Shown here: positions 5,701 to 27,840 of the stretch, in pieces | Layout: the number at the start of each line of letters is the position of its first letter | Numbering within the stretch: the first letter of the stretch is position 1 | Sequence record: NZ_CP118109.1 | DNA from: a plasmid | Direction: 5' to 3' (one strand) | Length of the DNA stretch: 64,000 nt | The notes under the pieces: generated by a model | Databases searched by the model: none | What the model saw: the letters and a program-made list of their open reading frames with translations, nothing else | What the model was told of the DNA's origin: nothing | Made by a program: the position numbers and the translations under genes

Positions 5701-6211
5701 AGAACTCTTTCCGGAAGTCTTCAAGCGCATCGTCTGGCGAAAACCCTACAACGAGTGGTTTCTCTTCTTCCATCATGCCGAAACCAAACAAGTCTAATTC
5801 TTCTTCTGATCCACTAGCCATAGACTTAAGATCTTCACGCATGATGTAGTCCTTTAGCAGCTCCCGAGCTTCAAGCATAAAGTTATCAGGATTGTTTCTC
5901 ACTGCTTTCCGAAATGCCTTCCAAGCCTTGTCCTTGATGCCGTATTTCTCTAAAAAAATAGCTTTTGAAGCTTTATGGAAATCACTTTTAAGGTGGCGAT
6001 TCTTCGTCATATAAGCTTCGCAGCCTGGGATCGGTTTGATCCCTTCCTCTTTGCATGCCGTTATAAAATCGGGAATAGCCCCGCAAACGCCGTGATCCGT
6101 AATGGCGAGCGCGGAGCTACCGATTTCCTTTGCACGCTTGACGAGGTCTTTTACGGTAGAAAGACCATCAAGCTCTGAGTATTCACAGTGTACATGTAAA
6201 TGATTGATCAT
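2756..6211 (-). CDS. dnaE: DNA polymerase III alpha subunit, DnaE-type (PHP domain N-terminus)
   Basis: 1151 aa. N-terminal HVHCEYSELDG...ITDHG PHP motif. Length and overall pattern typical of DnaE. Confidence 0.9.
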   Translation of the reverse strand: MINHLHVHCEYSELDGLSTVKDLVKRAKEIGSSALAITDHGVCGAIPDFITACKEEGIKPIPGCEAYMTKNRHLKSDFHKASKAIFLEKYGIKDKAWKAFRKAVRNNPDNFMLEARELLKDYIMREDLKSMASGSEEELDLFGFGMMEEEKPLVVGFSPDDALEDFRKEFYELIKHDNFHIVLMATNQQGLEDLYEIISDAHISGFYSNPRTDLAFIRDRGLGKHIIATSACLGSYLARFALAGDLAECRSFIQECKETFHSFYLEKQATRIPEQIRLNEIIDQLALETNTPKIVTTDVHYANKDDRDIHDILVASSMNKCIHDNDRLVYAHEFWMKSEDEIREIINDDEAIENTLRIAELVDVDLPKDPLFPKYIVDENDTAEEQLEKLAWNRLFTYALKTPIDLEQYSQQLQYELSVINPLGFADYFLIVSDYINWAKENGFEVGPGRGSAAGSLVAFVIGITTIDPIKWDLMFERFLNPERAGYPDIDVDFSYEGARAVQEYMKQKYGDLNVAQIGTYGTLAGRSVIRAVGKALGYGAQDQDRFAKSIPETPGITLDKYINKNGKEVDGAYQISPETRMYADRYPEWWQAAKALEGHVRSAGVHAGGIVLSPKPLTNTVPLRLDKEGLTTTQYDMEWIEKFLVKFDILKLSTLDLIKKTKQNAGIMELDLNTINFNDPKIYEEIYNKLNLSGIFQCESDLFRGIIKDMEPSNVEDISVIVALGRPGPLDLIPSYIRRKKGQERVTYPFDSLEPVLGKTYGIWVYQEQIMKASMILGGFTTGQSDILRKAISKKNHALMEEWINYMIYGSAEKDAELIAKGKEPLNIPGAISLGYDEATLLKIKEDWIKFGDYCFNYAHSACYAVLSVMTAYLKAYYPTEFMAALMTISEGKLKDGVPRNVAYMKECEEMGISILPPDINYSNDSWTPINAQEGEEGLGKILYGLASIAGVSSKDLDVITECRPFKEFDDFLLANRTMKLNKTKTSNLIKSGSFDTISDNRNLLLRRYFEYRGEEFEHMPSKTTKKDIIAYEREMLGTNVSIRSRWDSIEDGRENITFTGYIIESKPFTAKSSGKVTGKAKIETAEDELSLVIFNKIWSKNADDFIIGRKIKVVGKRSGSDLIVDKITYMDHAEQSEEEIMNQFQVEFS

Positions 6212-6233: not shown

Positions 6234-6530
6234 TTAATCTTTCGACTGGCCTTCCCCGATCACGTCGAGCGATGAAATAATTGGCCCAAATCTTCCATCT
6301 GCGCGCTTTACAACAGTAGTTGGAGCTACAGGCGATCCAATAACAACCATGCCTCCTACGCCGCTAGTTAGAATGATGGAGCGTGTTTTTCTTCCTTGTG
6401 TCATGTCCACATAGCGCCCATCGTCTTTAGCTTGAGTCATCATGCGACGTATTGGTGAGCTGTCTGGACGACTGATTGAAATGATCTTGCTTTCTTCAAT
6501 GAAATTTCCAAAACCGATATCGATGTACAT
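6234..6530 (-). CDS. RemA/DUF370-family DNA-binding protein homolog
   Basis: YIDIGFGNFI...ISRPDSSPIRRMM..AKDDGRYVDMTQGRKTRSIIL...VIGSPVAPTTVVKR matches the RemA (B. subtilis YlzA) consensus IGfGN...SaPiKR...lIDaTyGRrTR..I..d..vilS.vqPeT..R. Confidence 0.7.
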   Translation of the reverse strand: MYIDIGFGNFIEESKIISISRPDSSPIRRMMTQAKDDGRYVDMTQGRKTRSIILTSGVGGMVVIGSPVAPTTVVKRADGRFGPIISSLDVIGEGQSKD

Positions 6531-14389: not shown

Positions 14390-14839
14390 CTAAGCTCCCA
14401 CAAGGTTCTTTCTTGCTGTGTCATATTGACGGGCAATCGCTGCTGCGAGTTTATCATAAGGATCTTCCCATCCTTCTGGCTTCATTACTTTGCCGTCTTC
14501 TTTGTAATGAGGCTTGCCGTCTGGCCACAATTTGCTCATGTTTGCATGCTGAACGACATCCATGAGTTCTTGAGGTTTTACACCCAGCTCTACCAGTGTA
14601 CCGATAGCAAAGTAGATCACGTCAATCATAGCGTCAGCTTGATCGACAACAGTTTTAGCATCCAAAAATTCTTGTACTTCTTCATTAACCCAATTCATGC
14701 GCTTTGCCGCGCGTTCCGCATTCATGAGTGTTGGCAGCTCACTTACCGGATGATTAAATGCTTCCTGGAAAGCTTTCACCTGATCGTAAGCGTAGTCTAG
14801 CCCCTTGCCTTCATATTGATATGGTTGCATTAATTCCAT
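14390..14839 (-). CDS. MazG-like all-alpha nucleoside triphosphate pyrophosphohydrolase (MELMQPY N-terminus)
   Basis: E-E-x-x-E ... D acidic motif (NEEVQEFLDA...DQADAMIDVIYFA) typical of the MazG/HisE-like fold. 149 aa. AAGAGG RBS. Confidence 0.55.
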   Translation of the reverse strand: MELMQPYQYEGKGLDYAYDQVKAFQEAFNHPVSELPTLMNAERAAKRMNWVNEEVQEFLDAKTVVDQADAMIDVIYFAIGTLVELGVKPQELMDVVQHANMSKLWPDGKPHYKEDGKVMKPEGWEDPYDKLAAAIARQYDTARKNLVGA

Positions 14840-14866: not shown

Positions 14867-15907
14867 TTATAGATCATCGAAGCCGTTATCGTCACTGGTT
14901 TTTCCGTAGTTACGAGACTTGGTTTCGAAGAAGTCAGATTTAGTAGCGTTCAATGCTTCATCAGAGAATGGCTTGATCCAAGGCATGCAGTTTACATCAA
15001 CGCCTTCGTAAGCTTTCTCCAGACCGAGCATCTTCAGACGGCGGTTGGCCATGTATTTGATATAGTCAGACAGCTCTTCAAGATCGATGCCGCGGACTTC
15101 TTTTAGTGTGTAGTAGGCCCAGTTAGTTTCCAGCTGTACAGCACGATCAATAGTGTCGTAGGCATACTGAATGTTCTCAGGCGTGTTCAGCTCAGGGAAG
15201 TCTGCAAGCAGCTGCTTGAATACCTCTGCGAAGAAGTAGCAGTGCTGATTTTCATCCCGTTGGATATATGAGATCATCTGGCTAGTGCCGATCATCTTTT
15301 GGTCTCGAGCCAGGTTATAGAAGAATGCAAATGTACTGTAGAAGAAGATACCTTCAAGGATCAGGTCAGCCACCATGGCCTTGAAGAAGGTTTGTGGCGT
15401 CTGCTCATCACGGAACTCTTGGTAGATTTCTGAGATAAATGTATTGCGCTCCAACAGAACCGGATCATGCTTCCAATATTCAAAGATTTCTCGCTGCTCC
15501 TGCTCAGAAACCAAGGACGACAGTACATAGGAGTAGGACTGATTATGAACAACTTCCTGCTGTCCGATAATGGCCGAGATTGCTTCTAGTGAAGAGTCCG
15601 TAAAGTAACGCTTTACATCGCCGACAAACATGGTCTGCATGGAATCCAAGACTGCCAAGAGGCCGATATTGATCTTGAATGTACGCTGCTCTTCTGCATC
15701 CAGAAGCGGGAATTGCTGAGCATCCTTACTCATTGGGATTTCATCAGCGATCCAATGATTCAATAGCAGAACCTTGTAGAGCTTGTACATATGCGGCATG
15801 CGGATATCGTTCCAGTTGAGAATCCCTGAGTTCTCGCCTTCGATAATCCGAGTTGATTTATTTGGTGCTTCTGTATTGAAGATTTTTTGCATTTTCATCT
15901 TATTCAC
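14867..15907 (-). CDS. nrdF: ribonucleotide reductase class Ib beta subunit (NrdF)
   Basis: 346 aa. Ferritin-like RNR small-subunit pattern (...EGIFFYSTFAFFY...ISYIQRDENQHCYFF). Gene order nrdI-nrdE-nrdF. Confidence 0.9.
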   Translation of the reverse strand: MNKMKMQKIFNTEAPNKSTRIIEGENSGILNWNDIRMPHMYKLYKVLLLNHWIADEIPMSKDAQQFPLLDAEEQRTFKINIGLLAVLDSMQTMFVGDVKRYFTDSSLEAISAIIGQQEVVHNQSYSYVLSSLVSEQEQREIFEYWKHDPVLLERNTFISEIYQEFRDEQTPQTFFKAMVADLILEGIFFYSTFAFFYNLARDQKMIGTSQMISYIQRDENQHCYFFAEVFKQLLADFPELNTPENIQYAYDTIDRAVQLETNWAYYTLKEVRGIDLEELSDYIKYMANRRLKMLGLEKAYEGVDVNCMPWIKPFSDEALNATKSDFFETKSRNYGKTSDDNGFDDL

Positions 15908-16133
15908 TCTTCTTTCTCATTTTCTTTTCCCTGTAATAATCCGTTATAAATTGAACGAATAGCTTTTTGACTTTAAACATGATTAATATTGCACTAAACG
16001 TGTGGTCCCAAGCCCAAATCATGAACCATATCAGCAGACCCAAGGTTGTAAGGCCACCAAGGATAAAGGTGGCCCATACATACCAGATCAAGATTTCGCT
16101 TGATGGATCTATCATGAAGCGCAGTTCTCGCAT
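15900..16133 (-). CDS. small membrane protein (77 aa)
   Basis: Hydrophobic helix (WATFILGGLTTLGLLIWFMIWAW). Overlaps both neighbours slightly. Could be spurious. Confidence 0.3.
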   Translation of the reverse strand: MRELRFMIDPSSEILIWYVWATFILGGLTTLGLLIWFMIWAWDHTFSAILIMFKVKKLFVQFITDYYREKKMRKKSE

Positions 16134-18445
16134 TCTTCAATTGTCAATGCGCGGCTGCGGAGATAGTAGCTCGTCTTGATTCCGTTCTCCCAAACAGCCA
16201 TATGCAAATCCAAAAGATCACTTGCTTTGATGTCTGGAGTTACATAAAGGTTGAAGCTTTGAGCCTGGTCAATATGTCTCGATCGAGCACCGGCCATCTT
16301 AATGCTAGCGTGTTGATCAATCAAGAACGCAGTCTTGTAATACCAAAGTGTATCGTTATTCAGATCCGGAGCAGGATTGGCCACTTTATACGTTGTCTTT
16401 TCTTCATAAGAAACAAGTTCGTAAATCGGATCAATGGTTGCTGTAGAGCCGGCAATAATGGATGTGGTACCATTTGGCGCTATTGCTATCAGGTTCGCAT
16501 TGCGGATACCGTATTTACGGATCTCACCGGCAAGCTCCGCCCACTCAGTGCTGTTGTATCCTCGATCGGTAAAGTAGTTCCCGTTTTGCCATTCGCTGCC
16601 TTCAAACTTCGGATAGGCTCCTTTTTCTTTGGCCAAATCCATACTTGTCTTAATCGCAAGGAAGTTGATTTTCTCATAGAGCTTGTCGTTATAATCAACA
16701 GCAGCATCGGATTCCCATCGAATCTTCAGCAGGGCAAGTAAGTGATGAAGACCAAATGTTCCTAGACCAACGGCACGATACTGGTTGTTTGTGTGCTGTG
16801 CCTGAAGCACTTCGATGTTGTTGATGTCGATAACGTTATCTAGCATCCGAATTTGGATTGGAACAAGGCGTTCTAGCACATTGTCCGGAACCGCTCTGGA
16901 TAGATTAATTGAGTTCAGGTTACATACAACAAAGTCACCTGGAATTTTAGTAATGATGATCCGTGTTTCTCCATCCTTAGTTACAAGCTCTTCGGACTCA
17001 ACTACTGTTGGAGATTGGTTTTGCATGATCTCTGTACAGAGGTTTGAAGAATATATCATGCCGTGAGCTTTATTCGGATTCGTCCGGTTTACTGTATCAC
17101 GGTAGAACATGAACGGCGTGCCTGTCTCAAGCTGGGACTTCATAATGCGCTTCATAACATCAATAGCTTGAACAGTAATACGTGGCAGCAGTGGGTTTGC
17201 TACAGCTTCAGCATATTTCTCACGGAACGCTCCGCTTCCAAGCTTCTCATCATAGAAGTCTTCTAAGCCCAATTTGCGCCCCTTCTCATCTGTCCAACCC
17301 ATAATACTCTTCACTTCGTGAGGGCAGAACAGGTGCCATTCTTCGCGCTCACGAACAGCTTCCATGAATAGATCCGGCAGACATACGGCGTGGAAGATGT
17401 CATGCGCTCTCATACGCTCGTCACCGTTGTTCAATTTAAGATCCAAGAAGGACAGAATATCTTTATGGAAAACATCCAGATAGACAGCTACAGCGCCTTT
17501 ACGAGTGCCAAGCTGGTCAACGCTGACTGCCGTATTGTTCAGCTGGCGGATCCAAGGGATAACGCCGGAACTTGTATTCTTGTGCCCGCGGATATCGGAG
17601 CCTCTGGAACGTACTTTTCCAAGGTATACACCGATACCGCCACCCATTTTGCTGAGACGTGCTACATCGGTATTGGAATCAAAGATACCTTCAAGAGAGT
17701 CGTCAACCGTATCAATGAAGCAGCTGGACAGCTGTCCGCCAGAAGCTTTACCTGCATTAGATAAAGTCGGTGTAGCCACTGTCATGTATAGGTTGCTCAT
17801 AGCCCAGTAAGATTCTTTAACTAGCTCGATTCGCTTCTCTGCAGGCTCCTGGTGCATCAAGAACATAGAAATAATCATATAGCGCTCTTGCGGCAGCTCC
17901 ATTACCTTACCGTCATAATCGCTAGTCAAGTAGCGTTCATTGAGTGTCATGAGGCCAATGTAGTCGAACAGCAGATCTCTTTCTGGAGCGATAGTAGCTT
18001 CAAGCTCTTCGATTTCTTCTTTGGTGTAAGCTTCTAATAGTTCTTTTCTGAATAGCTTCTTCTCGACCAATGTCGTGATCAAGCTGTAGAAGGATCCATA
18101 AGGCTTATCTGTATATGATTTATAATTACGATTGAAAGCTGCCTTTTTATATAAGGATGTTAAAAAGGAACGAGCAGCCGCAAACTTCCAATTCGGTTCT
18201 TCTTTCGAAATCAATTCCAATGCAGACATAGTAAATGCATTTGTAATCTCATCGGCGGTTACTTCTTTGTATCTAAGCTTAGATAATACGCCACGAATTA
18301 AGCGTTGAATATTCAGGGGTTCTCCCTGCGAATCTTTTAAGTCTGCCATGATGCGTTCTGCGAATGCTTGGATTCGGTTAACGTCAAATGCCAGTTCTCT
18401 ATTATTGGGCTTTGTAACCTTTAGCGGTGTTGCGCTCAATTTCAT
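16112..18445 (-). CDS. nrdE: ribonucleotide reductase class Ib alpha subunit (NrdE)
   Basis: 777 aa. Active-site NLCTEI motif (SSNLCTEIMQ). C-terminal Cys pair. Typical RNR large-subunit length. Confidence 0.9.
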   Translation of the reverse strand: MKLSATPLKVTKPNNRELAFDVNRIQAFAERIMADLKDSQGEPLNIQRLIRGVLSKLRYKEVTADEITNAFTMSALELISKEEPNWKFAAARSFLTSLYKKAAFNRNYKSYTDKPYGSFYSLITTLVEKKLFRKELLEAYTKEEIEELEATIAPERDLLFDYIGLMTLNERYLTSDYDGKVMELPQERYMIISMFLMHQEPAEKRIELVKESYWAMSNLYMTVATPTLSNAGKASGGQLSSCFIDTVDDSLEGIFDSNTDVARLSKMGGGIGVYLGKVRSRGSDIRGHKNTSSGVIPWIRQLNNTAVSVDQLGTRKGAVAVYLDVFHKDILSFLDLKLNNGDERMRAHDIFHAVCLPDLFMEAVREREEWHLFCPHEVKSIMGWTDEKGRKLGLEDFYDEKLGSGAFREKYAEAVANPLLPRITVQAIDVMKRIMKSQLETGTPFMFYRDTVNRTNPNKAHGMIYSSNLCTEIMQNQSPTVVESEELVTKDGETRIIITKIPGDFVVCNLNSINLSRAVPDNVLERLVPIQIRMLDNVIDINNIEVLQAQHTNNQYRAVGLGTFGLHHLLALLKIRWESDAAVDYNDKLYEKINFLAIKTSMDLAKEKGAYPKFEGSEWQNGNYFTDRGYNSTEWAELAGEIRKYGIRNANLIAIAPNGTTSIIAGSTATIDPIYELVSYEEKTTYKVANPAPDLNNDTLWYYKTAFLIDQHASIKMAGARSRHIDQAQSFNLYVTPDIKASDLLDLHMAVWENGIKTSYYLRSRALTIEECENCAS

Positions 18446-18743
18446 TCACCTCTTTTATAAATTTCTCAACAGAATCTGATGAGATATATGGAACAGCCTG
18501 GCTCAATTCATGAAGTTCTTCCCTGCTGTATCGGCCGATAATGCTGCACCCAACCATAAGATTATGGTTATGTATAAGAAAGTCAGATACTTCTTCGGGC
18601 ATTTTACCTGTTTCTTCGGTGCTTGTAATCAGCACATAGGGCTGCTGCATTCGAAGCGCAGGGCCGATCCTTACGGCATGCATTCCCGTTTTCTTAACGA
18701 AACTCTCTGCTTTGCCAGATAAAGAATAATAACTCAATAACAT
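18402..18743 (-). CDS. nrdI: NrdI flavodoxin-like protein
   Basis: MLLSYYSLSGKAESFVKKTG...PYVLITSTEETGKMPEEVSDFL parallels B. subtilis NrdI (IIFDSKTGNVQRFVNKTG...PFVLVTYTTNFGQVP). The ORF-track start at 18785 reads through the promoter palindrome. AAGGAAGG RBS upstream of the ATG at 18743. Confidence 0.8.
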   Translation of the reverse strand: MLLSYYSLSGKAESFVKKTGMHAVRIGPALRMQQPYVLITSTEETGKMPEEVSDFLIHNHNLMVGCSIIGRYSREELHELSQAVPYISSDSVEKFIKEVNEIERNTAKGYKAQ

Positions 18744-18756
18744 GTGAAACCTTCCT

Positions 18757-18776
18757 TTTTGTAACGCATTACATTT
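18757..18776 (-). promoter_or_regulatory. dyad TTTGTAACGCATTACATTTA immediately upstream of nrdI RBS
   Basis: Core TGTAACGCATTACA at 18760-18773, 17 nt upstream of the nrdI ATG at 18743. The -10 is less clear (GATAAA). Confidence 0.45.
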
Positions 18777-18880
18777 ATCGTGCAATAGTTATTGTATTCT
18801 ATATTTCTCTTCATTTAAAGTCTTGACATTCGAAAAACCCCAACATGTAGTGCTGAGGTCTTCCGAAATATACAAGGTTT

Positions 18881-19279: not shown

Positions 19280-19759
19280 TTATTGGTATAGGTTTGCTAC
19301 AAAGATTCCGTCTTCATCAGTCGGACGAATGACATATCGCTTTGCTTCTGCCCCTTTTTCATTTATCCATTTCACAAGTCCAGCACTGAAGCATTTAAAA
19401 CCGCTACCTTTGTTGTTACCTTTTATAGCTCTAAGACGCATGCCGTCTTCTGATTTTCTTAGTACGATTTGACGAGGGCTGCCTCTGAATCCAATCTGAA
19501 CCTTGTCACCTTCTTTAATCCCTAGAAGTGCGCCAGCCTCTTTATTAATATGGATTCCTCCAGATTTTTGAAAACCAATGCTTGGATCTTTGACATTGAT
19601 ACTATTGGAATACCACTCAACTTCTTTGCTCGGAATATCGCTCATCTTGATACCATACCTTTCCGCTTCTTCGGGCGTCACTTGCCTAGTCTGCAATCCT
19701 TGCTGAAAAGGGAGTTTACCTGGATCGCTCGGATTTTTCCGCGGCCTGCCTCTTGTCAT
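19280..19759 (-). CDS. AbrB/MazE/SpoVT-family swapped-hairpin DNA-binding protein with N-terminal AT-hook-like GRPRK
   Basis: IHINKEAGALLGIKEGDKVQIGF resembles the AbrB/SpoVT core (IPKEIR..LGIKEGD.LEI). N-terminus MTRGRPRKNP. 159 aa. Confidence 0.5.
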   Translation of the reverse strand: MTRGRPRKNPSDPGKLPFQQGLQTRQVTPEEAERYGIKMSDIPSKEVEWYSNSINVKDPSIGFQKSGGIHINKEAGALLGIKEGDKVQIGFRGSPRQIVLRKSEDGMRLRAIKGNNKGSGFKCFSAGLVKWINEKGAEAKRYVIRPTDEDGIFVANLYQ

Positions 19760-20129: not shown

Positions 20130-20165
20130 TAAAACTGCGTAAAATCTTAATTATACGCAGTTTTT
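20130..20165. terminator. bidirectional terminator hairpin
   Basis: 11-bp stem AAAACTGCGTA/TACGCAGTTTT flanked by A-run and T-run; immediately downstream of gene 20164..20455. Confidence 0.55.
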
Positions 20166-20455
20166 ATAGTTCGCTAAACGGCGTGACGTTCGTTATATGA
20201 ATTTTTCCATCTGAATCTATACGCTGTTCCAATGATATGTTTTCCAATCGACTACCTGGATAGACTATTGGAAACCTCTCATCTTTGGTCTTCACAGCGA
20301 ACCCGATGCAATCTGCATAGTATAAGCTTTCTGCGTGGCTTACTTGGACCTGCACACCCAACTTCTCACTTAAGATGTGAGATAGCAATTCGCGAGAGAT
20401 GGGGATTACCCCGCCTCGTGTTATCGGCAGGCTCTCTTTTCTCTTCTTTTCTCCC
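20164..20455 (-). CDS. hypothetical protein
   Basis: ORF 20164..20544 trimmed to the ATG at 20455 (MGEKKRK), which has a GGAAGAGG RBS 6 nt upstream. The upstream part is instead occupied by a small TM ORF in another frame. Confidence 0.45.
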
Positions 20456-20471
20456 ATATATACCTCTTCCT

Positions 20472-20636
20472 TTACCCCCAGATTTCTTTGAGACGAGCCG
20501 CAACTAATAGCAAATAAACAATCGTGAAAGCTAAAAAGACCCATTGAATTTTTAAATTGCGCTTACGGCTATCCCCATAAAAATGTGCACTAAGACTTAA
20601 AATTAAAATATTGACTGCAAGCATAATGTGATCCAT
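20472..20636 (-). CDS. possible small transmembrane protein (54 aa), not in ORF track
   Basis: AAGGAG RBS. Translation MDHIMLAVNILILSLSAHFYGDSRKRNLKIQWVFLAFTIVYLLLVAARLKEIWG. Its stop abuts the RBS of the 20455 gene. Confidence 0.35.
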   Translation of the reverse strand: MDHIMLAVNILILSLSAHFYGDSRKRNLKIQWVFLAFTIVYLLLVAARLKEIWG

Positions 20637-20651
20637 TTAATTAATTGCTCC

Positions 20652-20957
20652 TTAATATGGCGTTTGCTTGGTTGCATACCAGTCTGAGGCAAACAAATCC
20701 GCCTGAGCAGGAAGCCAGCCTGGCTGCCATTCATCCGTTTCGCCATTAAAAAATGCGATATACGGCTGCGAATTAAGAGGCGTATTTACACCAATATGTT
20801 TTGCTGTGCGATCGTTAACCTTCAAAAATGTACTAGCTGTACTAAAAGGCGGCAGATAAAGAGAAGGCATCATTACAATGAAGCTGCCAGGTGCCCAAGA
20901 ATCGCGTCTTAACTTTTCTTCTTTCTCTAAGAGCTCAAGTGCATGTCCGAATTTCAT
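20652..20957 (-). CDS. DUF2829-family protein (Thoeris anti-defense Tad2-like fold candidate)
   Basis: MKFGHALELLEKEEKLRRDSW...YIAFFNGETDEWQPGWLPAQADLFASDWY matches DUF2829 hallmarks (F..A...L..G....R..W near N-terminus; W.P...DL.A.DW at C-terminus). Start trimmed to the second ATG, which has a GGGGAAG RBS. Confidence 0.55.
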   Translation of the reverse strand: MKFGHALELLEKEEKLRRDSWAPGSFIVMMPSLYLPPFSTASTFLKVNDRTAKHIGVNTPLNSQPYIAFFNGETDEWQPGWLPAQADLFASDWYATKQTPY

Positions 20958-20982
20958 TTCTTCCCCTGCTTTCATTTAAACT

Positions 20983-21312
20983 TTACTTGATTTCTTTTTC
21001 GTATTGCGGATGACTGCTTCTGTAATGATCTATGAAGATGCTATCTGCAATTTGTATTGCATCCTTGACTGAATCCATCATTCGTCTCGTATCATGATCC
21101 TGCGGCATCTTTTTTAAGATGATTAAAGCATTCGCTAATTGATCAACCACGTTTTTATGAGCAATCGTAAAGTCAAAAGTATATTTTTCTATCAGCCCTT
21201 TTATTTCTTCGCTATTGTCATCAGCATCAACTTCCAAGATGACTTTGCCAGTTTCCACTTCGATTAGAGAGATGCGATCAACTACTTTTTTTGCTACAAC
21301 ATTTTTGTCCAT
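20983..21312 (-). CDS. hypothetical protein
   Basis: 109-aa ORF. Confidence 0.45.
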   Translation of the reverse strand: MDKNVVAKKVVDRISLIEVETGKVILEVDADDNSEEIKGLIEKYTFDFTIAHKNVVDQLANALIILKKMPQDHDTRRMMDSVKDAIQIADSIFIDHYRSSHPQYEKEIK

Positions 21313-21326
21313 TTAAATACAGCTCC

Positions 21327-21812
21327 TCAGTCTTTAAATTCAATGAAATTGAAGCGTGCAACCTTGTTGGCCATTGCCAATAAAAAAGCGGAATTTGTTG
21401 GCTTTGGTTCCAGCAACGGGGACGGAGATTGATCGGCCTCATGGCTTTCGACCATGCCAAGAATGGCATCAAAGATATTAGTCTGAAGATCTTTTTTCAG
21501 AGGTGCAAGGAAGGTGCGGACCATAACCGGATGAATACGACGATACGCATCGCCAGTTTCATTGAAGCACAGATCCTGAAGTAAAGCTCCTGCACGGAAT
21601 GCATCGGCTAGGCCTCGAATCTTGGACTCTTCCCCCAAGAAACCCATAAGTATGCGGTATACGTTCTTTGTATAAGTAACGAGCTCCTCATCATTGTAGA
21701 AGCTTTCTGGCGCCATAGATAATGCATTCTGAGTAAAACTTTGAATCTCAGGATCGTTAAATTGCTCCAATTCCTCTTTAAAAATAAGTACGGCTGGCTT
21801 TACTTCTGACAT
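21327..21812 (-). CDS. hypothetical protein
   Basis: ORF trimmed to the ATG at 21812 (MSEVKP...), which has an AAGGAGG RBS 8 nt upstream. Confidence 0.5.
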   Translation of the reverse strand: MSEVKPAVLIFKEELEQFNDPEIQSFTQNALSMAPESFYNDEELVTYTKNVYRILMGFLGEESKIRGLADAFRAGALLQDLCFNETGDAYRRIHPVMVRTFLAPLKKDLQTNIFDAILGMVESHEADQSPSPLLEPKPTNSAFLLAMANKVARFNFIEFKD

Positions 21813-21813
21813 G

Positions 21814-22035
21814 TTAGCGTCCTCCTTGATTTTCGCTTGCACATTTTACATGGCAATGATTTTTAATTTCCCAATCCAAATTTCTTCTCCAAGCTCCATT
21901 ATTTCCTCCTGGAGAATTGCTGCTTGGGGTTTTTACATTCATTCCGCAAAAGCGACAGTACACAGGTTGCTCAACGCTTTGATAAGATTGCTGGATCATA
22001 ATCTGCTCAAAGCTCATAGGGCTATTCTTTTTCAC
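21814..22035 (-). CDS. small zinc-ribbon protein (GTG start)
   Basis: CRFCGMNVK...HCHVKC Cys/His pairs. 73 aa. Confidence 0.4.
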   Translation of the reverse strand: MKKNSPMSFEQIMIQQSYQSVEQPVYCRFCGMNVKTPSSNSPGGNNGAWRRNLDWEIKNHCHVKCASENQGGR

Positions 22036-22195
22036 TAGGTCTTACCTCTGGCTCTTCAAGTTTCGGTGGCCTGATATATCTGCGATCGAATAGAATAATC
22101 GCGTTCCTAAGAGGACCCTCAGCATCATGAAGCCCCGAAATTGCGAGCATCTATGAGCAGTTGAATATAATCCATGTGTTCTTTTACTGTTAGAT

Positions 22196-22789
22196 TCATT
22201 TTGCGTTAACCTCCTTTAAAGAGAAGACGCCTAAATGGTCAGCATCTTTCAGGATGAATTTGCCTTGGGATTCGTTATTAACGAAGTACTCAAGCTTCTG
22301 CCCGATGAATGGGATCATCGTTGATGTATCAGCATCCGACTCTTCTTCGCTGCGTAAAATAACTTTGCCACCAGGCAAGATAATCTTGTGCACCCCGCTG
22401 TGGCCATCCTCGCAATGCACATCAAATAATTTGAAGTCAGTTCCATCCAAATCAACACGCTGCCTGCGGATCATCATGTTCAGAATCTTCTCGTTATGCT
22501 TTTCTGTATTGCAAATGGAGCCCTCTTCAAAGAGGATACAGCTGCGGCATTCGGAGTCAGAAGAATTGAAGTTTCTGCATTTAAAGCACAGCGGGCATTC
22601 GTGGAAACGAATGCACTCGCCGTACACTTGATGTCTTGGCATATTCAGCGGATCTTCTTTGGATAGTACCTTCCCTTTCGGTGCCTTAAAGCTTTCCTGC
22701 TTCATCATGCCAGCTTTGTATTGTTCCAGCATCTCTCTGCGATCGCTCTCTGTAAGGCCGCCTTGATAGGCTTTCTCCATAAAATCCAT
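22196..22789 (-). CDS. Cys-rich metal-binding protein (unknown function)
   Basis: Dense Cys cluster (CIRFHECPLCFKCRNFNSSDSECRSCILFEEGSIC). 197 aa. Confidence 0.5.
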   Translation of the reverse strand: MDFMEKAYQGGLTESDRREMLEQYKAGMMKQESFKAPKGKVLSKEDPLNMPRHQVYGECIRFHECPLCFKCRNFNSSDSECRSCILFEEGSICNTEKHNEKILNMMIRRQRVDLDGTDFKLFDVHCEDGHSGVHKIILPGGKVILRSEEESDADTSTMIPFIGQKLEYFVNNESQGKFILKDADHLGVFSLKEVNAK

Positions 22790-22804
22790 GAACTTAAATC
22801 CCCT

Positions 22805-23170
22805 TTATTCTTCGTTTTCTACAACAGGCTCTTCCGGATCTTCAACACCTAGGCGGAGCATGTCGTTTAGAGACAACATTGTTTTTTGGCTGGCTACATT
22901 AGGATCTTTTTCGATGGCTTTTTCAGCTTCATCGACTTTTTGCTCTAGCCAAACTCCTTCATTCATTTTGTCTTCAATGATCTCCCTAAGCTGCTTCAGC
23001 TTCATAGGGCGTTCGTCATCTTTATTCTTCTGAGGTGGATTAGAAGCCATATCTTTGTTTAAATCGTTGTACTCTTTTTGCAGCTTACGAGTCTCCATAT
23101 CCAGATCCGTAATCTTGTCTTTCATGATTGTCATAAGCTCTTCGGTTGTAAAATGTTTACCAATTAACAT
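22805..23170 (-). CDS. hypothetical coiled-coil protein
   Basis: 121 aa; charged, heptad-like composition. Confidence 0.5.
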   Translation of the reverse strand: MLIGKHFTTEELMTIMKDKITDLDMETRKLQKEYNDLNKDMASNPPQKNKDDERPMKLKQLREIIEDKMNEGVWLEQKVDEAEKAIEKDPNVASQKTMLSLNDMLRLGVEDPEEPVVENEE

Positions 23171-25464: not shown

Positions 25465-26568
25465 TTAGTTTTGATAAATCTTAGAGGCGAATCGGCGCTG
25501 AGCTTCATCTTCCGCTTGGATAAACAGAGAGTAATCGGGAATAAAATTAAAGAACTTAGTACTCTTCATGGATGCGTGCTTATTCTTAGCGAACTTCACT
25601 TCCACGACAGGCATCTTCAAGTCTTCATCTTCATCGACCCAATAGATTTCAGCATTCTCTTCCTTGATGCCGACTTCGTTGTACATAAGGCAGACCATTG
25701 TTGCTTCATAACGAAGAGTGATTGTATCCTTCAGATCATCCTCTATCGGACGCTTGCCGTTCGTTTTACGCAAGTGAGCTGTACACATAACGACAACATC
25801 AAATCTTGTAGCCCAGCCTTTGATCGTTTTAGATACGTGAGCCGTCTTATCATCATTGTTGCTGAAGGTCTTGCTCTCTACTGTCAAGTCATTGAAGGAG
25901 TCAATTGCAATTACGATTCGAGTGCCTTCAGGCATCGTCATCTTAATATCCTTGATGTGCTCTTCAATGGCTTCAACGCTGGTCATATCATTGGAATCGA
26001 ACATGCCGAAGCGGTCTACTCTGCGATACAGGTTCTTGATTCCTTCATTACGCTTATTGATAATCTCTTCATCGTCTTCATACTTAGCTGGCGACTTTGC
26101 TTGGCCGATCGTGATTTGTTGATCGTTGGCAATATAGCGCGGCATAAGATCGTTATTGGCATCATCAAGCGAATGATACGAAACATAGACCTTTTCATTT
26201 CTCTCTGATATTCCTTTACATACTTGAAGCATGTAGGCGGATTTACCGACGTTTGGTGCAGCGGCAAATAAGATAAGCCCAGGCTGAGCCCCGCCTTCAA
26301 AGGCGTCATCGAATGATTGCAACCCTGAAATTAATCCCCCGTTTTTCCCTCTGGCCCATGAGTGAGCATCCATATTCATGATATTGCGGAGCATCTTTTC
26401 TTCGATTCTGTTTAACGGACGACCAAGTATTCCCTCGACATTTGTAACAATAACCTTTTTTCTCATTTCGGGCTCAAAGCCGAATGCATTTGGATCTTGC
26501 TGCATTTGTCTTTCAACTTGATGCATGATGTCCGTAAAACTAAATTGTCCTGGCTGTGTATTGCTCAT
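25465..26568 (-). CDS. replicative DNA helicase, DnaB-like RecA-fold ATPase
   Basis: Walker A AAPNVGKS. SLDDA (DnaB SLEM-like). Walker B IVIAIDSFNDL. The ORF-track start at 26727 is rejected because GGAAGGAG RBS lies 6 nt upstream of the ATG at 26568 (MSNTQPG...). Confidence 0.75.
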   Translation of the reverse strand: MSNTQPGQFSFTDIMHQVERQMQQDPNAFGFEPEMRKKVIVTNVEGILGRPLNRIEEKMLRNIMNMDAHSWARGKNGGLISGLQSFDDAFEGGAQPGLILFAAAPNVGKSAYMLQVCKGISERNEKVYVSYHSLDDANNDLMPRYIANDQQITIGQAKSPAKYEDDEEIINKRNEGIKNLYRRVDRFGMFDSNDMTSVEAIEEHIKDIKMTMPEGTRIVIAIDSFNDLTVESKTFSNNDDKTAHVSKTIKGWATRFDVVVMCTAHLRKTNGKRPIEDDLKDTITLRYEATMVCLMYNEVGIKEENAEIYWVDEDEDLKMPVVEVKFAKNKHASMKSTKFFNFIPDYSLFIQAEDEAQRRFASKIYQN

Positions 26569-26585
26569 AGCTGCTCCTTCCATAC

Positions 26586-26742
26586 GGCTTATCTCTCTCC
26601 CGTGTAATACCTGCGAGTGTTCGTAAGCATTACACAGGGAGAGATCCCTGTGTGTTGTGTGTTGGGTGAAGTTGAGGTTCGAGCAGGGTCCTAAGCTGCC
26701 CCTTACAAGGTGCGTATAAAAACACAACCCTCTAAGGGACGC
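26586..26742 (-). other. GC-rich, highly structured non-coding element between primase and helicase genes (candidate RNase III processing site, ncRNA or replication-origin-like element)
   Basis: About 52% GC versus about 40% for flanking sequence. On the minus strand an about 17-bp imperfect stem (AUCUCUCCCUGUGUAAU...AUUACACGGGAGAGAGAU) ends 10 nt before the helicase RBS. A second enclosed helix pairs GGCCUAAGC with GCUUAGGACC. CA-repeat ACACACAACACACA. The ORF-track frame through it lacks an RBS, whereas the helicase has a strong one at 26569-26580. Confidence 0.45.
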
Positions 26743-27840
26743 TTAGGCCTTTTTCTCTTCCTCTGCTTTTTTATTCAACTCTTTATTAAAGAGAGGACAT
26801 TTATCTTTATCGCATACGCCGCTCAGTCTAGCAAAAGCTTCACAGCCGTATCGGTATTGTCCGTTATAAACTGAGTTCACAATAGTTTCGATATCTCTTC
26901 TGTTCAATCGAGGCATGCAGTTCTCTTCGCCCCATATGAGCATCCGCGCCATTGCTTCATCTCGTTCCATTCCTTGCTGCATATAGAAGCTGGTAAGTGC
27001 AGTCCCAGAGTTATTACGCTCGTCCACAGTTTCTTTAAATGTACGCTCAAGCATGGTCTGAATGCATGGCGGCAGAGTTTCTAGCTTGCGAATCTTCCCT
27101 TGGTATTCCTTTGCTTTTATATTCCGTTCGGTCCATTTTTGGATGTACCGATCAAGGGATAACTTAGCTCTATTTGATGTTACCAGTGGAGCAGGTTGAA
27201 GGAATCTCGGTTCTTTTGCCAGTTCCTTAATTTGTTCTAGTGTACAAGTGCGAAGCTCCTGCTGCGTTATGGGTATCTTATAATGACCACCCTTCTTATT
27301 GAAGGAGTTGACCATTCGAAACATGCGCTTATCATCGTATATTGCTGTATCCATTGTTCCAAACAGTGTGTACTTCGCGATATCAAGTGCAATCTCACGG
27401 TAGATTTGATTCAGGGATACGTGCGGATTTAGCCCAAGCACATGTCCGCTGACAGTCAAGTGAATCCCTTTGTGTCCCGAATAAAATACATTGATCTGAT
27501 CAGGCTCGATTGAAAGAATATGCTTAAGATAACGAAAGGCAATATGCACGTCATACTTTAATTTGGTGTAATCCTCTTCTGTCTCTAATGGCTTATCAAA
27601 GTCCAGATAAAGATCGCCCCATTTCAGAGCATCCCTTGCATTCAATACCCATTTCCCTTTTTCATTTTGAAAGAACTCAGGGTTAATGTATTGCATTACA
27701 GTCTCATAGACGCCTATGTTGTTGTAGTAATTCCGAAACTTGATGGTCTCGGAAGGATGCATATAATGCTTTCGTGTAAATGGAAACTTTTCCGAATTGG
27801 TGTCCGCTCCGCATTCCACAAAAAGCTGGAACTCATTCAC
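26743..27840 (-). CDS. DNA primase, archaeo-eukaryotic primase (AEP/Prim-Pol) superfamily with C-terminal Cys4 zinc element
   Basis: Motif I YLDFD, motif II SGHKGIHLTV, motif III RMVNSFNKK. C-terminal C...C...C..C (YGCEAFARLSGVCDKDKCPLF). 365 aa. Confidence 0.7.
   Translation of the reverse strand: MNEFQLFVECGADTNSEKFPFTRKHYMHPSETIKFRNYYNNIGVYETVMQYINPEFFQNEKGKWVLNARDALKWGDLYLDFDKPLETEEDYTKLKYDVHIAFRYLKHILSIEPDQINVFYSGHKGIHLTVSGHVLGLNPHVSLNQIYREIALDIAKYTLFGTMDTAIYDDKRMFRMVNSFNKKGGHYKIPITQQELRTCTLEQIKELAKEPRFLQPAPLVTSNRAKLSLDRYIQKWTERNIKAKEYQGKIRKLETLPPCIQTMLERTFKETVDERNNSGTALTSFYMQQGMERDEAMARMLIWGEENCMPRLNRRDIETIVNSVYNGQYRYGCEAFARLSGVCDKDKCPLFNKELNKKAEEEKKA

What the first reader, a model, noticed from the sequence alone, without database searches (positions are those of the whole stretch)
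20652..20957. DUF2829 (Tad2-like) candidate anti-Thoeris sponge protein
The 101-aa product has the DUF2829 hallmarks: N-terminal F..A...L.......R..W and C-terminal W.P...DL.A.DW (QPGWLPAQADLFASDWY). DUF2829 proteins include Tad2, which sequesters the gcADPR signal of Thoeris defence. It sits in a cluster of small accessory genes (20164-23170) together with Cys-rich and zinc-ribbon proteins, which is typical of anti-defence islands.
Basis: partly seen in the sequence, partly recalled or inferred. Interest (0 to 1): 0.6.

Follow-up and report, generated by a model that had tools for sequence, protein, structure and literature searches.

The report
Divergent Tad2-family phage sponge protein
This small phage gene is a real member of the known Tad2 family, whose proteins soak up bacterial immune alarm molecules, but its usual binding pocket for the Thoeris signal is partly altered, so which alarm molecule it captures is uncertain.

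Summary
Window 20652-20957 (- strand) encodes a 101-aa protein that matches Pfam PF11195 (Tad2-like/DUF2829) at E=7.6e-17, 62 bits against a cut-off of 25. An AlphaFold2 model (pLDDT 82.7) has 22 significant PDB matches, and all are solved Tad2 structures. The identical protein is already in NCBI/UniRef as a DUF2829 protein of Paenibacillus sp. TCA20.

It lies in a jumbo-phage-like element, between virion genes and the NrdI/NrdE genes.

It belongs to a large long-insertion subfamily (type member Vibrio phage KVP40.0296). This subfamily is closest to the dinucleotide-binding SptTad2/HgmTad2 and carries a near-invariant KVNDRTAKHIG motif in the insertion.

The specific anti-Thoeris reading is only partly supported:
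- Three of the four SPO1 Tad2 gcADPR contacts are kept (W21, W81, D87).
- The Asn-Gly of the W-N-G loop is lost and the loop is one residue shorter.
- The equivalents of HgmTad2 S90 and T92 are Ala, and the beta5-beta6 hairpin differs.
- The syntenic ortholog has even replaced the loop Trp with Met.

The most likely function is a homo-oligomeric sponge for a nucleotide immune signal of unresolved identity. No neighbouring gene matches a known anti-defence family. It is a new, divergent member of a known kind, of modest interest.

The parts
20652..20957 (-). CDS of a 101-aa Tad2-like (DUF2829, PF11195) protein, stop codon included. It is identical to NCBI 'hypothetical protein TCA2_4590', Paenibacillus sp. 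TCA20.
   Evidence: ORF list. Pfam 62 bits, E=7.6e-17. Identical database protein P0001. AF2 model pLDDT 82.7. All 22 significant Foldseek PDB hits are Tad2 structures.
20958..20967 (-). Shine-Dalgarno-like purine run, AGGGGAAGAA, immediately upstream of the ATG at 20957. It favours the 101-aa start over the in-frame ATG at 20975.
   Evidence: Read directly from the sequence. Homolog N-termini start at the equivalent Met.
20881..20901 (-). Codons 19-25 (D-S-W-A-P-G-S), the beta1-beta2 loop L12. This corresponds to the K/G-G-W-N-G-K-G ligand loop of characterised Tad2 proteins. Trp is kept, Asn-Gly is lost, and the loop is one residue shorter.
   Evidence: HMMER alignments to SptTad2, HgmTad2, ModTad2 and SPO1 Tad2.
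20790..20822 (-). Codons 46-56 (K-V-N-D-R-T-A-K-H-I-G), the near-invariant motif of the insertion domain. It aligns with the alpha2-alpha3 loop (K46/S47) that binds the phosphate of cyclic dinucleotides in HgmTad2.
   Evidence: Invariant in alignment A1. N48, R50 and T51 are conserved in 200-204 of 223 domain sequences before any motif-based selection. The other motif positions are equally conserved in both loop classes. Alignment to HgmTad2. Pocket description.
20679..20729 (-). Codons 77-93 (W-Q-P-G-W-L-P-A-Q-A-D-L-F-A-S-D-W), the C-terminal hallmark. W81 and D87 equal SPO1 W73 and D79 (HgmTad2 W87 and D93). A84 and A86 replace HgmTad2 S90 and T92.
   Evidence: Alignments. Residue roles. Column statistics.

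Best explanation
The gene encodes a small phage protein of the Tad2 (DUF2829) family. Expressed during infection, it most likely assembles into a homo-oligomer, a tetramer in all solved relatives. This oligomer would bind and sequester a nucleotide-derived second messenger of a host abortive-infection system, so that the effector is never activated.

Shown here: family membership, the Tad2 fold, and membership of a long-insertion subfamily closest to the dual-pocket SptTad2/HgmTad2.

Inferred: oligomerisation and sequestration.

My committed reading on specificity is that this protein is not a plain SPO1-type 3'cADPR sponge. Its canonical inter-dimer pocket is remodelled: the W-N-G loop is reduced to W-A with a one-residue deletion, S90 and T92 are Ala, and the hairpin is altered. 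It is either weakened or retuned to another ADPR-type ligand. The near-invariant K46-V-N-D-R-T-A-K53 motif, together with L35 and Y66, lies where HgmTad2 binds cyclic dinucleotides and ModTad2 binds cUMP. This insertion-domain pocket is probably the main ligand site, for a nucleotide signal not yet identified. It is not cGG-type, because the guanine readers R31 and N85 are replaced by Met and Pro.
For: Family and fold:
- Pfam PF11195 scores 62 bits, E=7.6e-17.
- The AF2 model has pLDDT 82.7, with the core above 90.
- The top 22 Foldseek PDB hits are all Tad2 structures (HgmTad2, SptTad2, ModTad2, SPO1), TM 0.6-0.87, and nothing else is significant.
- The subfamily profile scores SptTad2 at 72.5 bits, HgmTad2 at 71.4, ModTad2 at 55.3 and SPO1 at 46.8.

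Known mechanism of relatives: tetrameric sponges with two separate pocket types. The family inhibits Thoeris types I, II and IV, CBASS and Pycsar.

Pocket residues:
- W21, W81 and D87 are kept.
- The N22/G23 equivalents are lost, and S90 and T92 are Ala (with residue roles).
- The query departs from the subfamily consensus mainly in L12 (2 of 6 positions match) and the hairpin (3 of 11). It matches 7 of 7 scored positions of the insertion motif.

Subfamily pattern:
- Among 181 unique subfamily sequences, 56 lack the loop Asn. The insertion motif is equally conserved in both classes.
- The loss maps to about 24 parsimony changes on a neighbour-joining tree.
- The syntenic ortholog P0002 (64.5% identical) has Met in place of the loop Trp but an identical motif.

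Selection and context:
- The gene is intact and conserved in position in a related phage. dN is 0.37 with synonymous sites saturated.
- The phage context is clear.
- The KVP40 homolog sits in an early region next to asiA.
Against: No binding, oligomer or in vivo data exist for this protein or, as far as I could find, for any member of its subfamily.

The supplementary tables listing the 18 Tad2 homologs tested in 2025 are not held, so one of them could belong to this subfamily.

The insertion region is modelled with low confidence as a monomer (pLDDT 53-72).

Conservation of the motif could reflect the intradimer interface rather than a ligand site; alpha2/beta2 packing forms that interface in SPO1 Tad2.

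Three of four SPO1 contact residues are retained, so 3'cADPR binding may survive.

The Fisher test and the parsimony count are not corrected for phylogeny or for the noise of a tree built from a 95-column alignment.

Whether the host carries Thoeris, CBASS or Pycsar is unknown.
Confidence: 0.6

Rival explanations
1. This is the first reader's reading: a classical Tad2. The tetramer binds 1''-3' gcADPR (3'cADPR) in the canonical inter-dimer pocket and thereby blocks type I Thoeris, as SPO1 Tad2 does.
For: The family match is strong and the fold matches Tad2. W21, W81 and D87 correspond to SPO1 W25, W73 and D79, the main van der Waals and polar contacts. Four of five homologs first tested inhibited type I Thoeris. 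Li et al. judged the gcADPR site conserved in about 99% of Tad2 proteins.
Against: The loop Asn (SPO1 N26 / HgmTad2 N22) and the Gly that bind the diphosphate are missing, and the loop is one residue shorter. The HgmTad2 S90 and T92 equivalents are Ala; the W21A/N22A and S90A/T92A/D93A mutants of HgmTad2 lose binding. The hairpin wall differs from the subfamily consensus. The ortholog P0002 has lost even the Trp. All 17 homologs found in bacterial genomes, 10 of them in Paenibacillus, keep W-N-G, so this lineage is an outlier.
Confidence: 0.3
2. The protein acts as an AcrIIA7-like anti-CRISPR or has some other non-sponge role. DUF2829 was first linked to Cas9 inhibition, and weak hits include a 'transcriptional regulator' PHROG.
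For: PDB hits include entries named AcrIIA7 (8kbi, 9kzr). phrog_643 'transcriptional regulator' scores E=0.024.
Against: Li et al. could not reproduce any anti-Cas9 activity for AcrIIA7/HgmTad2 or other Tad2 homologs. The PHROG hit is not significant. All biochemically characterised members are sponges.
Confidence: 0.05
3. The protein is a decaying or functionally relaxed relic. The pocket changes reflect loss of function in a phage whose hosts lack the cognate defence.
For: The N-terminal 25 residues, including the ligand loop, are only 40% identical to the ortholog, against about 75% for the rest. E13 replaces a Gly conserved in 92% of sequences.
Against: The ORF is intact with a good ribosome-binding site. 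It is retained at the same position in a relative whose proteins are 40-75% identical. The insertion motif and C-terminal hallmark are fully conserved. The AF2 core is confident.
Confidence: 0.05

Closest known systems
SptTad2 (PDB 8WJD) and HgmTad2/AcrIIA7 (PDB 8KBI-8KBM, 8WJC): long-insertion Tad2 sponges with two pocket types
   Same: They are the best sequence and structure matches and have the same domain length of about 100 aa. The long insertion between beta2 and beta5 is of similar size, about 36 residues against 35-41. L35 and Y66 align with the base-stacking L36 and F70, and K46 aligns with the phosphate-loop K46. The C-terminal GWL..Q.D....DW motif is shared.
   Different: Identity is only 22-26%. 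The guanine-reading R31 and N85 are Met and Pro, and S47 is Val. The insertion carries a different, near-invariant KVNDRTAKHIG motif. The W-N-G-K-G loop is W-A-P-G, one residue shorter, and S90 and T92 are Ala.
SPO1 Tad2 (Gp34.65; PDB 8SME/8SMF/8SMG/8WJE), founding anti-Thoeris type I sponge
   Same: Same fold (TM 0.6-0.8). The W25, W73 and D79 equivalents are present, as is the W-x-P-S/A-Q-x-D arrangement.
   Different: The N26 equivalent is absent. SPO1 has a short insertion (residues 36-59) with no second pocket, because F44 stacking occludes it. The subfamily profile scores SPO1 lowest of the solved Tad2s.
ModTad2 (PDB 8V3E, 9EIB), His-ADPR (type II Thoeris) and cUMP/cCMP (Pycsar) sponge
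   Same: Same fold. It shows that Tad2 proteins can retune the canonical pocket and use the intradimer pocket for another nucleotide.
   Different: ModTad2 keeps W-N-G and has a short insertion. Identity is about 23% and the KVNDRTAK motif is absent.
KVP40.0296 and homologs in Schizotequatrovirus Vibrio phages (uncharacterised DUF2829 proteins)
   Same: Same subfamily, 58-62% identical, with the same length and the same insertion motif.
   Different: The Vibrio phage proteins keep the canonical G-W-N-G-K/Q-G-M loop and the Ser at the S90 position. The host phylum and phage type differ.

Membership tests
Tad2 / DUF2829 (Pfam PF11195) | Profile match above the curated gathering score over the whole domain | tested here: met
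   62 bits against a cut-off of 25, E=7.6e-17, profile positions 1-71 of 73.
Tad2 / DUF2829 (Pfam PF11195) | Tad2 fold: an N-terminal helix, an antiparallel five-stranded sheet, an insertion between beta2 and beta5, and a short C-terminal helix before the last strand | tested here: met
   The AF2 model has pLDDT 82.7 and pTM 0.70, with secondary-structure order H-E-E-(E-H-H-E)-E-E-H-E. All 22 Foldseek PDB hits with E<=1e-3 are Tad2 structures.
Tad2 / DUF2829 (Pfam PF11195) | Small stand-alone protein encoded by a phage or prophage | tested here: met
   101 aa. It is flanked by virion, replication and RNR genes of a jumbo-phage-like element.
Tad2 / DUF2829 (Pfam PF11195) | Homotetramer (dimer of V/X-shaped dimers) with pockets at protomer interfaces | not testable with these tools
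   Only monomer prediction is available. It needs AF-multimer/AF3 or SEC-MALS.
gcADPR-binding Tad2 (SPO1/HgmTad2 type, anti-Thoeris type I) | Aromatic and acidic contacts: SPO1 W25, W73, D79 (HgmTad2 W21, W87/L88, D93) | tested here: met
   W21, W81, L82 and D87 align with these residues.
gcADPR-binding Tad2 (SPO1/HgmTad2 type, anti-Thoeris type I) | Asn-Gly of the W-N-G loop that binds the diphosphate and hydroxyls (SPO1 N26; HgmTad2 N22/G23) | tested here: not met
   The query has S-W-A-P-G with a one-residue deletion. Asn is present in 69% of subfamily sequences and in all 17 bacterial-genome homologs.
gcADPR-binding Tad2 (SPO1/HgmTad2 type, anti-Thoeris type I) | Polar residues at the alpha4 N-terminus (HgmTad2 S90, T92) that contact the adenine and ribose | tested here: not met
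   These positions are A84 and A86 in the query. Ser at position 84 is 82% conserved in the subfamily. Position 86 is often Ala in the subfamily.
gcADPR-binding Tad2 (SPO1/HgmTad2 type, anti-Thoeris type I) | Binds 3'cADPR and abolishes Thoeris defence in vivo | not testable with these tools
   This requires biochemistry and phage assays.
Cyclic-dinucleotide-binding Tad2 (HgmTad2/SptTad2 type) | Long insertion (35-41 aa) between beta2 and beta5 forming an intradimer pocket | tested here: met
   The insertion spans P31-Y66, about 36 aa. The best PDB matches are SptTad2 and HgmTad2. Pocket formation itself was not tested.
Cyclic-dinucleotide-binding Tad2 (HgmTad2/SptTad2 type) | cGG-contact residues R31, S47, F70, N85 (plus L36 and K46) | tested here: not met
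   L36 aligns with L35, F70 with Y66 and K46 with K46, so these are kept. R31 is replaced by M30, S47 by V47 and N85 by P79. M30 and P79 are near-invariant in the subfamily (M 205 of 223, P 206 of 223); V47 was used to define the set.
AcrIIA7 anti-CRISPR | Inhibition of Cas9 interference | not testable with these tools
   The protein shares the DUF2829 domain. The activity was not reproducible in Li et al..

The most novel reading that the evidence does not exclude
The KVP40-type long-insertion Tad2 subfamily has at least 160 loci in IMG/VR, and the query is a divergent member. It may use its near-invariant K-V-N-D-R-T-A-K-x-I-G insertion pocket as the primary binding site for an immune signal that differs from the cGG/cGAMP bound by HgmTad2, possibly one not yet assigned to any sponge. 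On this reading the canonical gcADPR pocket is dispensable and has been remodelled repeatedly: in about one third of 50%-identity clusters, in this phage, and in its ortholog, which lost even the pocket Trp.
Probability: 0.3. Interest if true: 0.6.

Novelty: new member of a known kind. Interest (0 to 1): 0.35.

Why it matters
Tad2 proteins are among the most widespread phage counter-defence sponges, and recent work shows that single family members differ in which immune signals they capture. This protein adds little as another Tad2 homolog, and it is already auto-annotated as DUF2829. It does flag a sizeable, apparently uncharacterised subfamily with two notable features: a near-invariant insertion motif at the position of the second (cyclic-nucleotide) pocket, and a canonical Thoeris-signal pocket that is recurrently remodelled. 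If the insertion pocket proves to be the main site, the subfamily would be a handle for finding which signal it sequesters, and so which host system that signal serves. It would also give a natural test of how sponge specificity evolves. The protein also marks a Paenibacillus jumbo-phage-like element as carrying at least one candidate counter-defence gene.

Tried and rejected
DNA-level searches:
- A megablast of the 5-kb neighbourhood against GenBank phages found nothing.
- A tblastn of a putative head-region protein found nothing.

Neighbouring genes:
- Pfam, PHROGs and PADLOC scans of the neighbours gave no hit to any anti-defence or defence family.
- The only match was phrog_5889, of unknown function, for the 171-aa protein.
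- tblastn of the 109-aa and 171-aa neighbours found nothing.

Other checks:
- A promoter and terminator scan gave counts at or below the shuffle expectation, so no operon boundaries can be claimed.
- dN/dS against the syntenic ortholog could not be computed because synonymous sites are saturated.
- I looked for a tested member of the subfamily in the literature by motif string and in the supplements of the 2025 sponge-diversity preprint. No text hit was found and no supplements are held.
- The genome-collection scan did not contain the source genome, so host defence systems could not be examined.

Considered and rejected:
- The 107-aa start, because it has no ribosome-binding site and homologs start at the second Met.
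- Pro at position 83 (GWLP) as a marker of lost gcADPR binding. It correlates with loss of the loop Asn, but SPO1 Tad2 itself has W-V-P-S.
- The N-terminal extension seen in longer homologs has no Pfam match, including Acb4 and Sequestin. It is absent from the query.

Full report
**1. Observation**

The - strand carries an ORF ending at 20652, with in-frame ATGs at 20975 (107 aa) and 20957 (101 aa). Several things favour the second ATG:
- It is preceded by AGGGGAAGAA (read), while the first ATG has no comparable purine run.
- Homologs begin M-[KN]-F-G.
- The database protein and independent gene calls use the 101-aa form.

The protein matches Pfam PF11195 (Tad2-like, formerly DUF2829) at E=7.6e-17, 62 bits against a gathering score of 25, over profile positions 1-71 of 73. 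It also matches PHROGs 1048 and 872, both of unknown function. Among solved structures, its significant sequence hits are all Tad2 proteins: SptTad2, HgmTad2/AcrIIA7, ModTad2 and SPO1 Gp34.65.

**2. Fold**

I predicted the structure with AlphaFold2 using a 15-sequence alignment. Mean pLDDT was 82.7 and pTM 0.70. The core scored above 90, and the insertion (residues 31-60) scored 53-72. Foldseek against the PDB returned 22 hits with E<=1e-3. Every one is a Tad2 structure (HgmTad2, SptTad2, ModTad2, SPO1 Tad2), with TM 0.6-0.87. The next hit has E=1.8. Fold membership is established.

**3. Genomic setting**

The identical protein is 'hypothetical protein TCA2_4590' of Paenibacillus sp. TCA20, named a DUF2829 protein in UniRef. 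It lies on a 214,846-bp contig and on Logan contigs of 190 kb and 4.8 kb.

All substantial ORFs of the window are on the - strand. They encode:
- a DnaE-like polymerase, a protease, a DnaB helicase and a primase;
- 'virion structural proteins', including giants of 1660, 1723 and 2787 aa;
- NrdE, NrdI and NrdF;
- a MazG-like hydrolase, RusA, a PD-(D/E)XK nuclease and an amidase.

The nearest cultured phages are Moorella phage MTATph1 and the Bacillus jumbo phage 0305phi8-36 group, at only 21-29% protein identity. There is no DNA-level match in GenBank phages. The element is therefore a novel jumbo-phage-like genome or prophage.

The Tad2 gene is tightly packed between a 109-aa gene (25-nt gap) and a 54-aa gene (15-nt gap). 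This block lies between the virion module and nrdI-nrdE. Promoter and terminator scans are uninformative.

**4. The 'anti-defence island' claim**

No neighbour matches any Pfam, PHROG or PADLOC anti-defence or defence family. A syntenic relative exists (Logan contig L084). Its shared proteins, compared with the window, are:

| Protein | Identity |
|---|---|
| 583-aa F5/8-type-C virion protein | 68% |
| 121-aa protein | 48% |
| 197-aa Cys-rich protein | 67% over 58% of its length |
| 73-aa zinc-ribbon protein | 55% |
| 171-aa protein | 40% |
| Tad2 | 64.5% |
| NrdI | 48% |
| NrdE | 75% |

The 109-aa gene directly upstream of the Tad2 gene, and all genes between it and nrdI, are different in the two phages. 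The Cys-rich and zinc-ribbon genes therefore behave as lineage core genes. The Tad2 gene sits at the edge of a short variable stretch. This is compatible with an accessory region but is not evidence for an anti-defence island.

**5. Place in the family**

Only 15 close relatives were found by word-indexed search, at 49-65% identity. An exhaustive search of 50%-identity representatives found 163 proteins at E<=1e-3, the best only 60% identical. IMG/VR holds at least 160 loci. GenBank phages with a homolog are almost all KVP40-like Vibrio phages, at 58-62% identity. KVP40.0296 lies directly after asiA.

These proteins form a subfamily defined by a long beta2-beta5 insertion carrying L-P-P-x-S/N-T-Q ... 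K-V-N-D-R-T-A-K-H/W/F-I-G ... P-L-x-S-Q-P-Y, and by W-Q-P-G-W. A profile of the subfamily scores the long-insertion, dual-pocket SptTad2 (72.5 bits) and HgmTad2 (71.4) above ModTad2 (55.3) and SPO1 Tad2 (46.8).

I found no paper mentioning the motif. The supplementary tables of the 2025 study that tested 18 Tad2 homologs are not held. To my knowledge the subfamily is uncharacterised, but this is not proven.

**6. Ligand-pocket residues**

In SPO1 Tad2, 1''-3' gcADPR is held by W25, W73, N26 and D79 from two protomers. In HgmTad2 the equivalent residues are:
- W21, N22 and G23, which bind the diphosphate;
- W87, L88 and D93;
- T92, which binds the adenine;
- the hydrophobics M76, A78 and V84.

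The W21A/N22A and S90A/T92A/D93A mutants lose binding.

Aligning the query and SPO1 gives these correspondences:
- W21 = SPO1 W25.
- W81 = SPO1 W73.
- D87 = SPO1 D79.
- L82 = HgmTad2 L88.

The loop, however, reads S-W-A-P-G-S instead of G-W-N-G-K-G-M. Asn and Gly are gone and the loop is one residue shorter. S90 is replaced by A84 and T92 by A86. The beta5-beta6 hairpin (F-F-N-G-E-T-D-E against the consensus M-W-T-A-Q-x-K/Q) is one residue longer and matches the consensus at only 3 of 11 positions.

Among 181 unique subfamily sequences, 125 keep the loop Asn and 56 do not. Ser at position 84 is 82% conserved, and Gly at position 13 (Glu in the query) is 92% conserved. All 17 homologs found in bacterial genomes, 10 of them in Paenibacillus, keep G-W-N-G. 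The syntenic ortholog P0002 reads K-E-M-P-E-G-S, so even the Trp is replaced. The N-terminal 25 residues of the two orthologs are 40% identical, against about 75% for the rest.

On a neighbour-joining tree built without the pocket columns, absence of Asn needs about 24 changes, against about 48 when the states are shuffled. The state is clustered but apparently recurrent, though a tree from about 80 columns is noisy. Loss of Asn correlates with Pro at position 83 (Fisher p=6e-13, not phylogeny-corrected). SPO1 Tad2 itself has W-V-P-S, so I do not treat that Pro as diagnostic.

**7. The insertion pocket**

HgmTad2 and SptTad2 bind cGG and cGAMP in a second, intradimer pocket built from the insertion. 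The contributions are:
- L36 and F70 stack on the base.
- R31 and N85 read the guanine.
- K46 and S47, in the alpha2-alpha3 loop, hold the phosphate.

ModTad2 binds cUMP at the same interface.

In the query's subfamily, L35 and Y66 align with L36 and F70 and are near-invariant. K46 aligns with K46. R31, S47 and N85 are replaced by M30, V47 and P79 (M30 and P79 near-invariant; V47 was used to define the set). The following N-D-R-T-A-K, predicted as the start of a helix at 49-55, is the most conserved stretch of the protein and is equally conserved in sequences with and without the loop Asn. The seven motif positions not used to define the set have a mean top-residue frequency of 0.82, and the query matches the consensus at all 7.

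I infer that this pocket exists and is functionally important, with a specificity different from cGG. The alternative is that the motif is conserved because it forms the dimer interface. That cannot be excluded with a monomer model.

**8. Mechanism and confidence**

Family and fold membership are shown. By homology to every characterised member, the most likely function is a homo-oligomeric sponge for a nucleotide-derived immune signal. I put this at about 0.75.

I favour a retuned or weakened canonical pocket with the insertion pocket as the main site, at about 0.6 for the combined statement. The ligand is unidentified.

An anti-CRISPR or other role, or a decaying relic, are each about 0.05. 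Anti-Cas9 activity of AcrIIA7 was not reproducible. The gene is intact, positionally conserved and retains all subfamily hallmarks.

**9. Novelty and verdict**

The protein is already auto-annotated as DUF2829, and the Tad2 family holds thousands of members (2,783 non-redundant in IMG/VR). It is a new, divergent member of a known kind.

What is worth carrying forward is the subfamily-level pattern: a near-invariant insertion motif alongside a recurrently remodelled canonical pocket. This makes a concrete, testable prediction about sponge specificity. Overall interest is 0.35.

Noticed in passing
window 1-64000 (whole window): The window is part of a jumbo-phage-like element with every substantial gene on the - strand. 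It encodes a DnaE-like polymerase (2756-6211), NrdF/NrdE/NrdI (14867-18785), a DnaB helicase and primase (25465-27840), and giant virion proteins of 1660, 1723 and 2787 aa (35956-60709). It is only 21-29% identical at protein level to Moorella phage MTATph1 and Bacillus phage 0305phi8-36, with no DNA match in GenBank phages. The source contig in Paenibacillus sp. TCA20 is 214,846 bp, about the size of 0305phi8-36.
   Followed up: partly
P0008, P0013-P0015, L098, L101 (homologs, not in the window): Many subfamily members carry an N-terminal extension of about 70 aa (FIGTK..A.PM.R..YN.FRGW.LP..E..D.GYLVEY.DGG...GYAGYVSWSPK..F..Y). It has no Pfam match even at E<=1. By the 'fused to a known sponge' logic of PMC12265669, it is a candidate additional sponge domain.
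   Followed up: partly
L084 5170-5487 (Logan SRR28201068 contig), ortholog P0002: A syntenic related phage has a Tad2 ortholog (64.5% identical) in which the ligand-loop Trp is Met (K-E-M-P-E-G-S). The genes between Tad2 and nrdI are entirely different from the window's (48 aa plus a DUF3307 protein, against 54, 97, 55, 40, 159 and 125 aa), marking a short hypervariable stretch.
   Followed up: partly
window 20983-21312 (-): The 109-aa gene immediately upstream of the Tad2 gene is absent from the syntenic relative. It has no match in Pfam, PHROGs, PADLOC or GenBank phages. It is an orphan accessory gene next to the sponge gene.
   Followed up: partly
window 19280-19759 (-): The 159-aa protein starts with an AT-hook-like MTRGRPRKNP. 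It is 28-30% identical to proteins annotated 'RNA polymerase sigma factor' in Paenibacillus larvae phages (Dragolir, Vegas, Hayley). This is consistent with a Paenibacillus host.
   Followed up: no
L091 (NZ_CP186007.1, Paenibacillus sp. EC2-1 'plasmid pla', 206,502 bp): A complete 206.5-kb 'plasmid' carries a subfamily Tad2 homolog with a canonical W-N-G loop. It could be a phage-plasmid or an episomal jumbo prophage. The 3-kb flanks share no other protein with the window's Tad2 neighbourhood.
   Followed up: no
P0032 (288 aa, representative library): One homolog combines HNH_3 and AP2 domains, typical of homing endonucleases, with a Tad2 match in two stretches; the best stretch covers only profile positions 24-73. 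This suggests a homing endonuclease inserted in or fused to a Tad2 gene.
   Followed up: no
L083 3693-4297 (Vibrio phage KVP40, NC_005083.2 159768-160372): The KVP40 subfamily member KVP40.0296 lies 8 nt downstream of asiA (anti-sigma factor). It is therefore probably in an early transcription unit, as expected for a counter-defence gene.
   Followed up: no
window 14390-14839 (-) and 6234-6530 (-): The phage encodes a MazG-like NTP pyrophosphohydrolase (PRA-PH domain, E=1.8e-16) and a RemA-like protein (E=9e-22). The latter is a biofilm-matrix regulator family that is unusual in phages.
   Followed up: no
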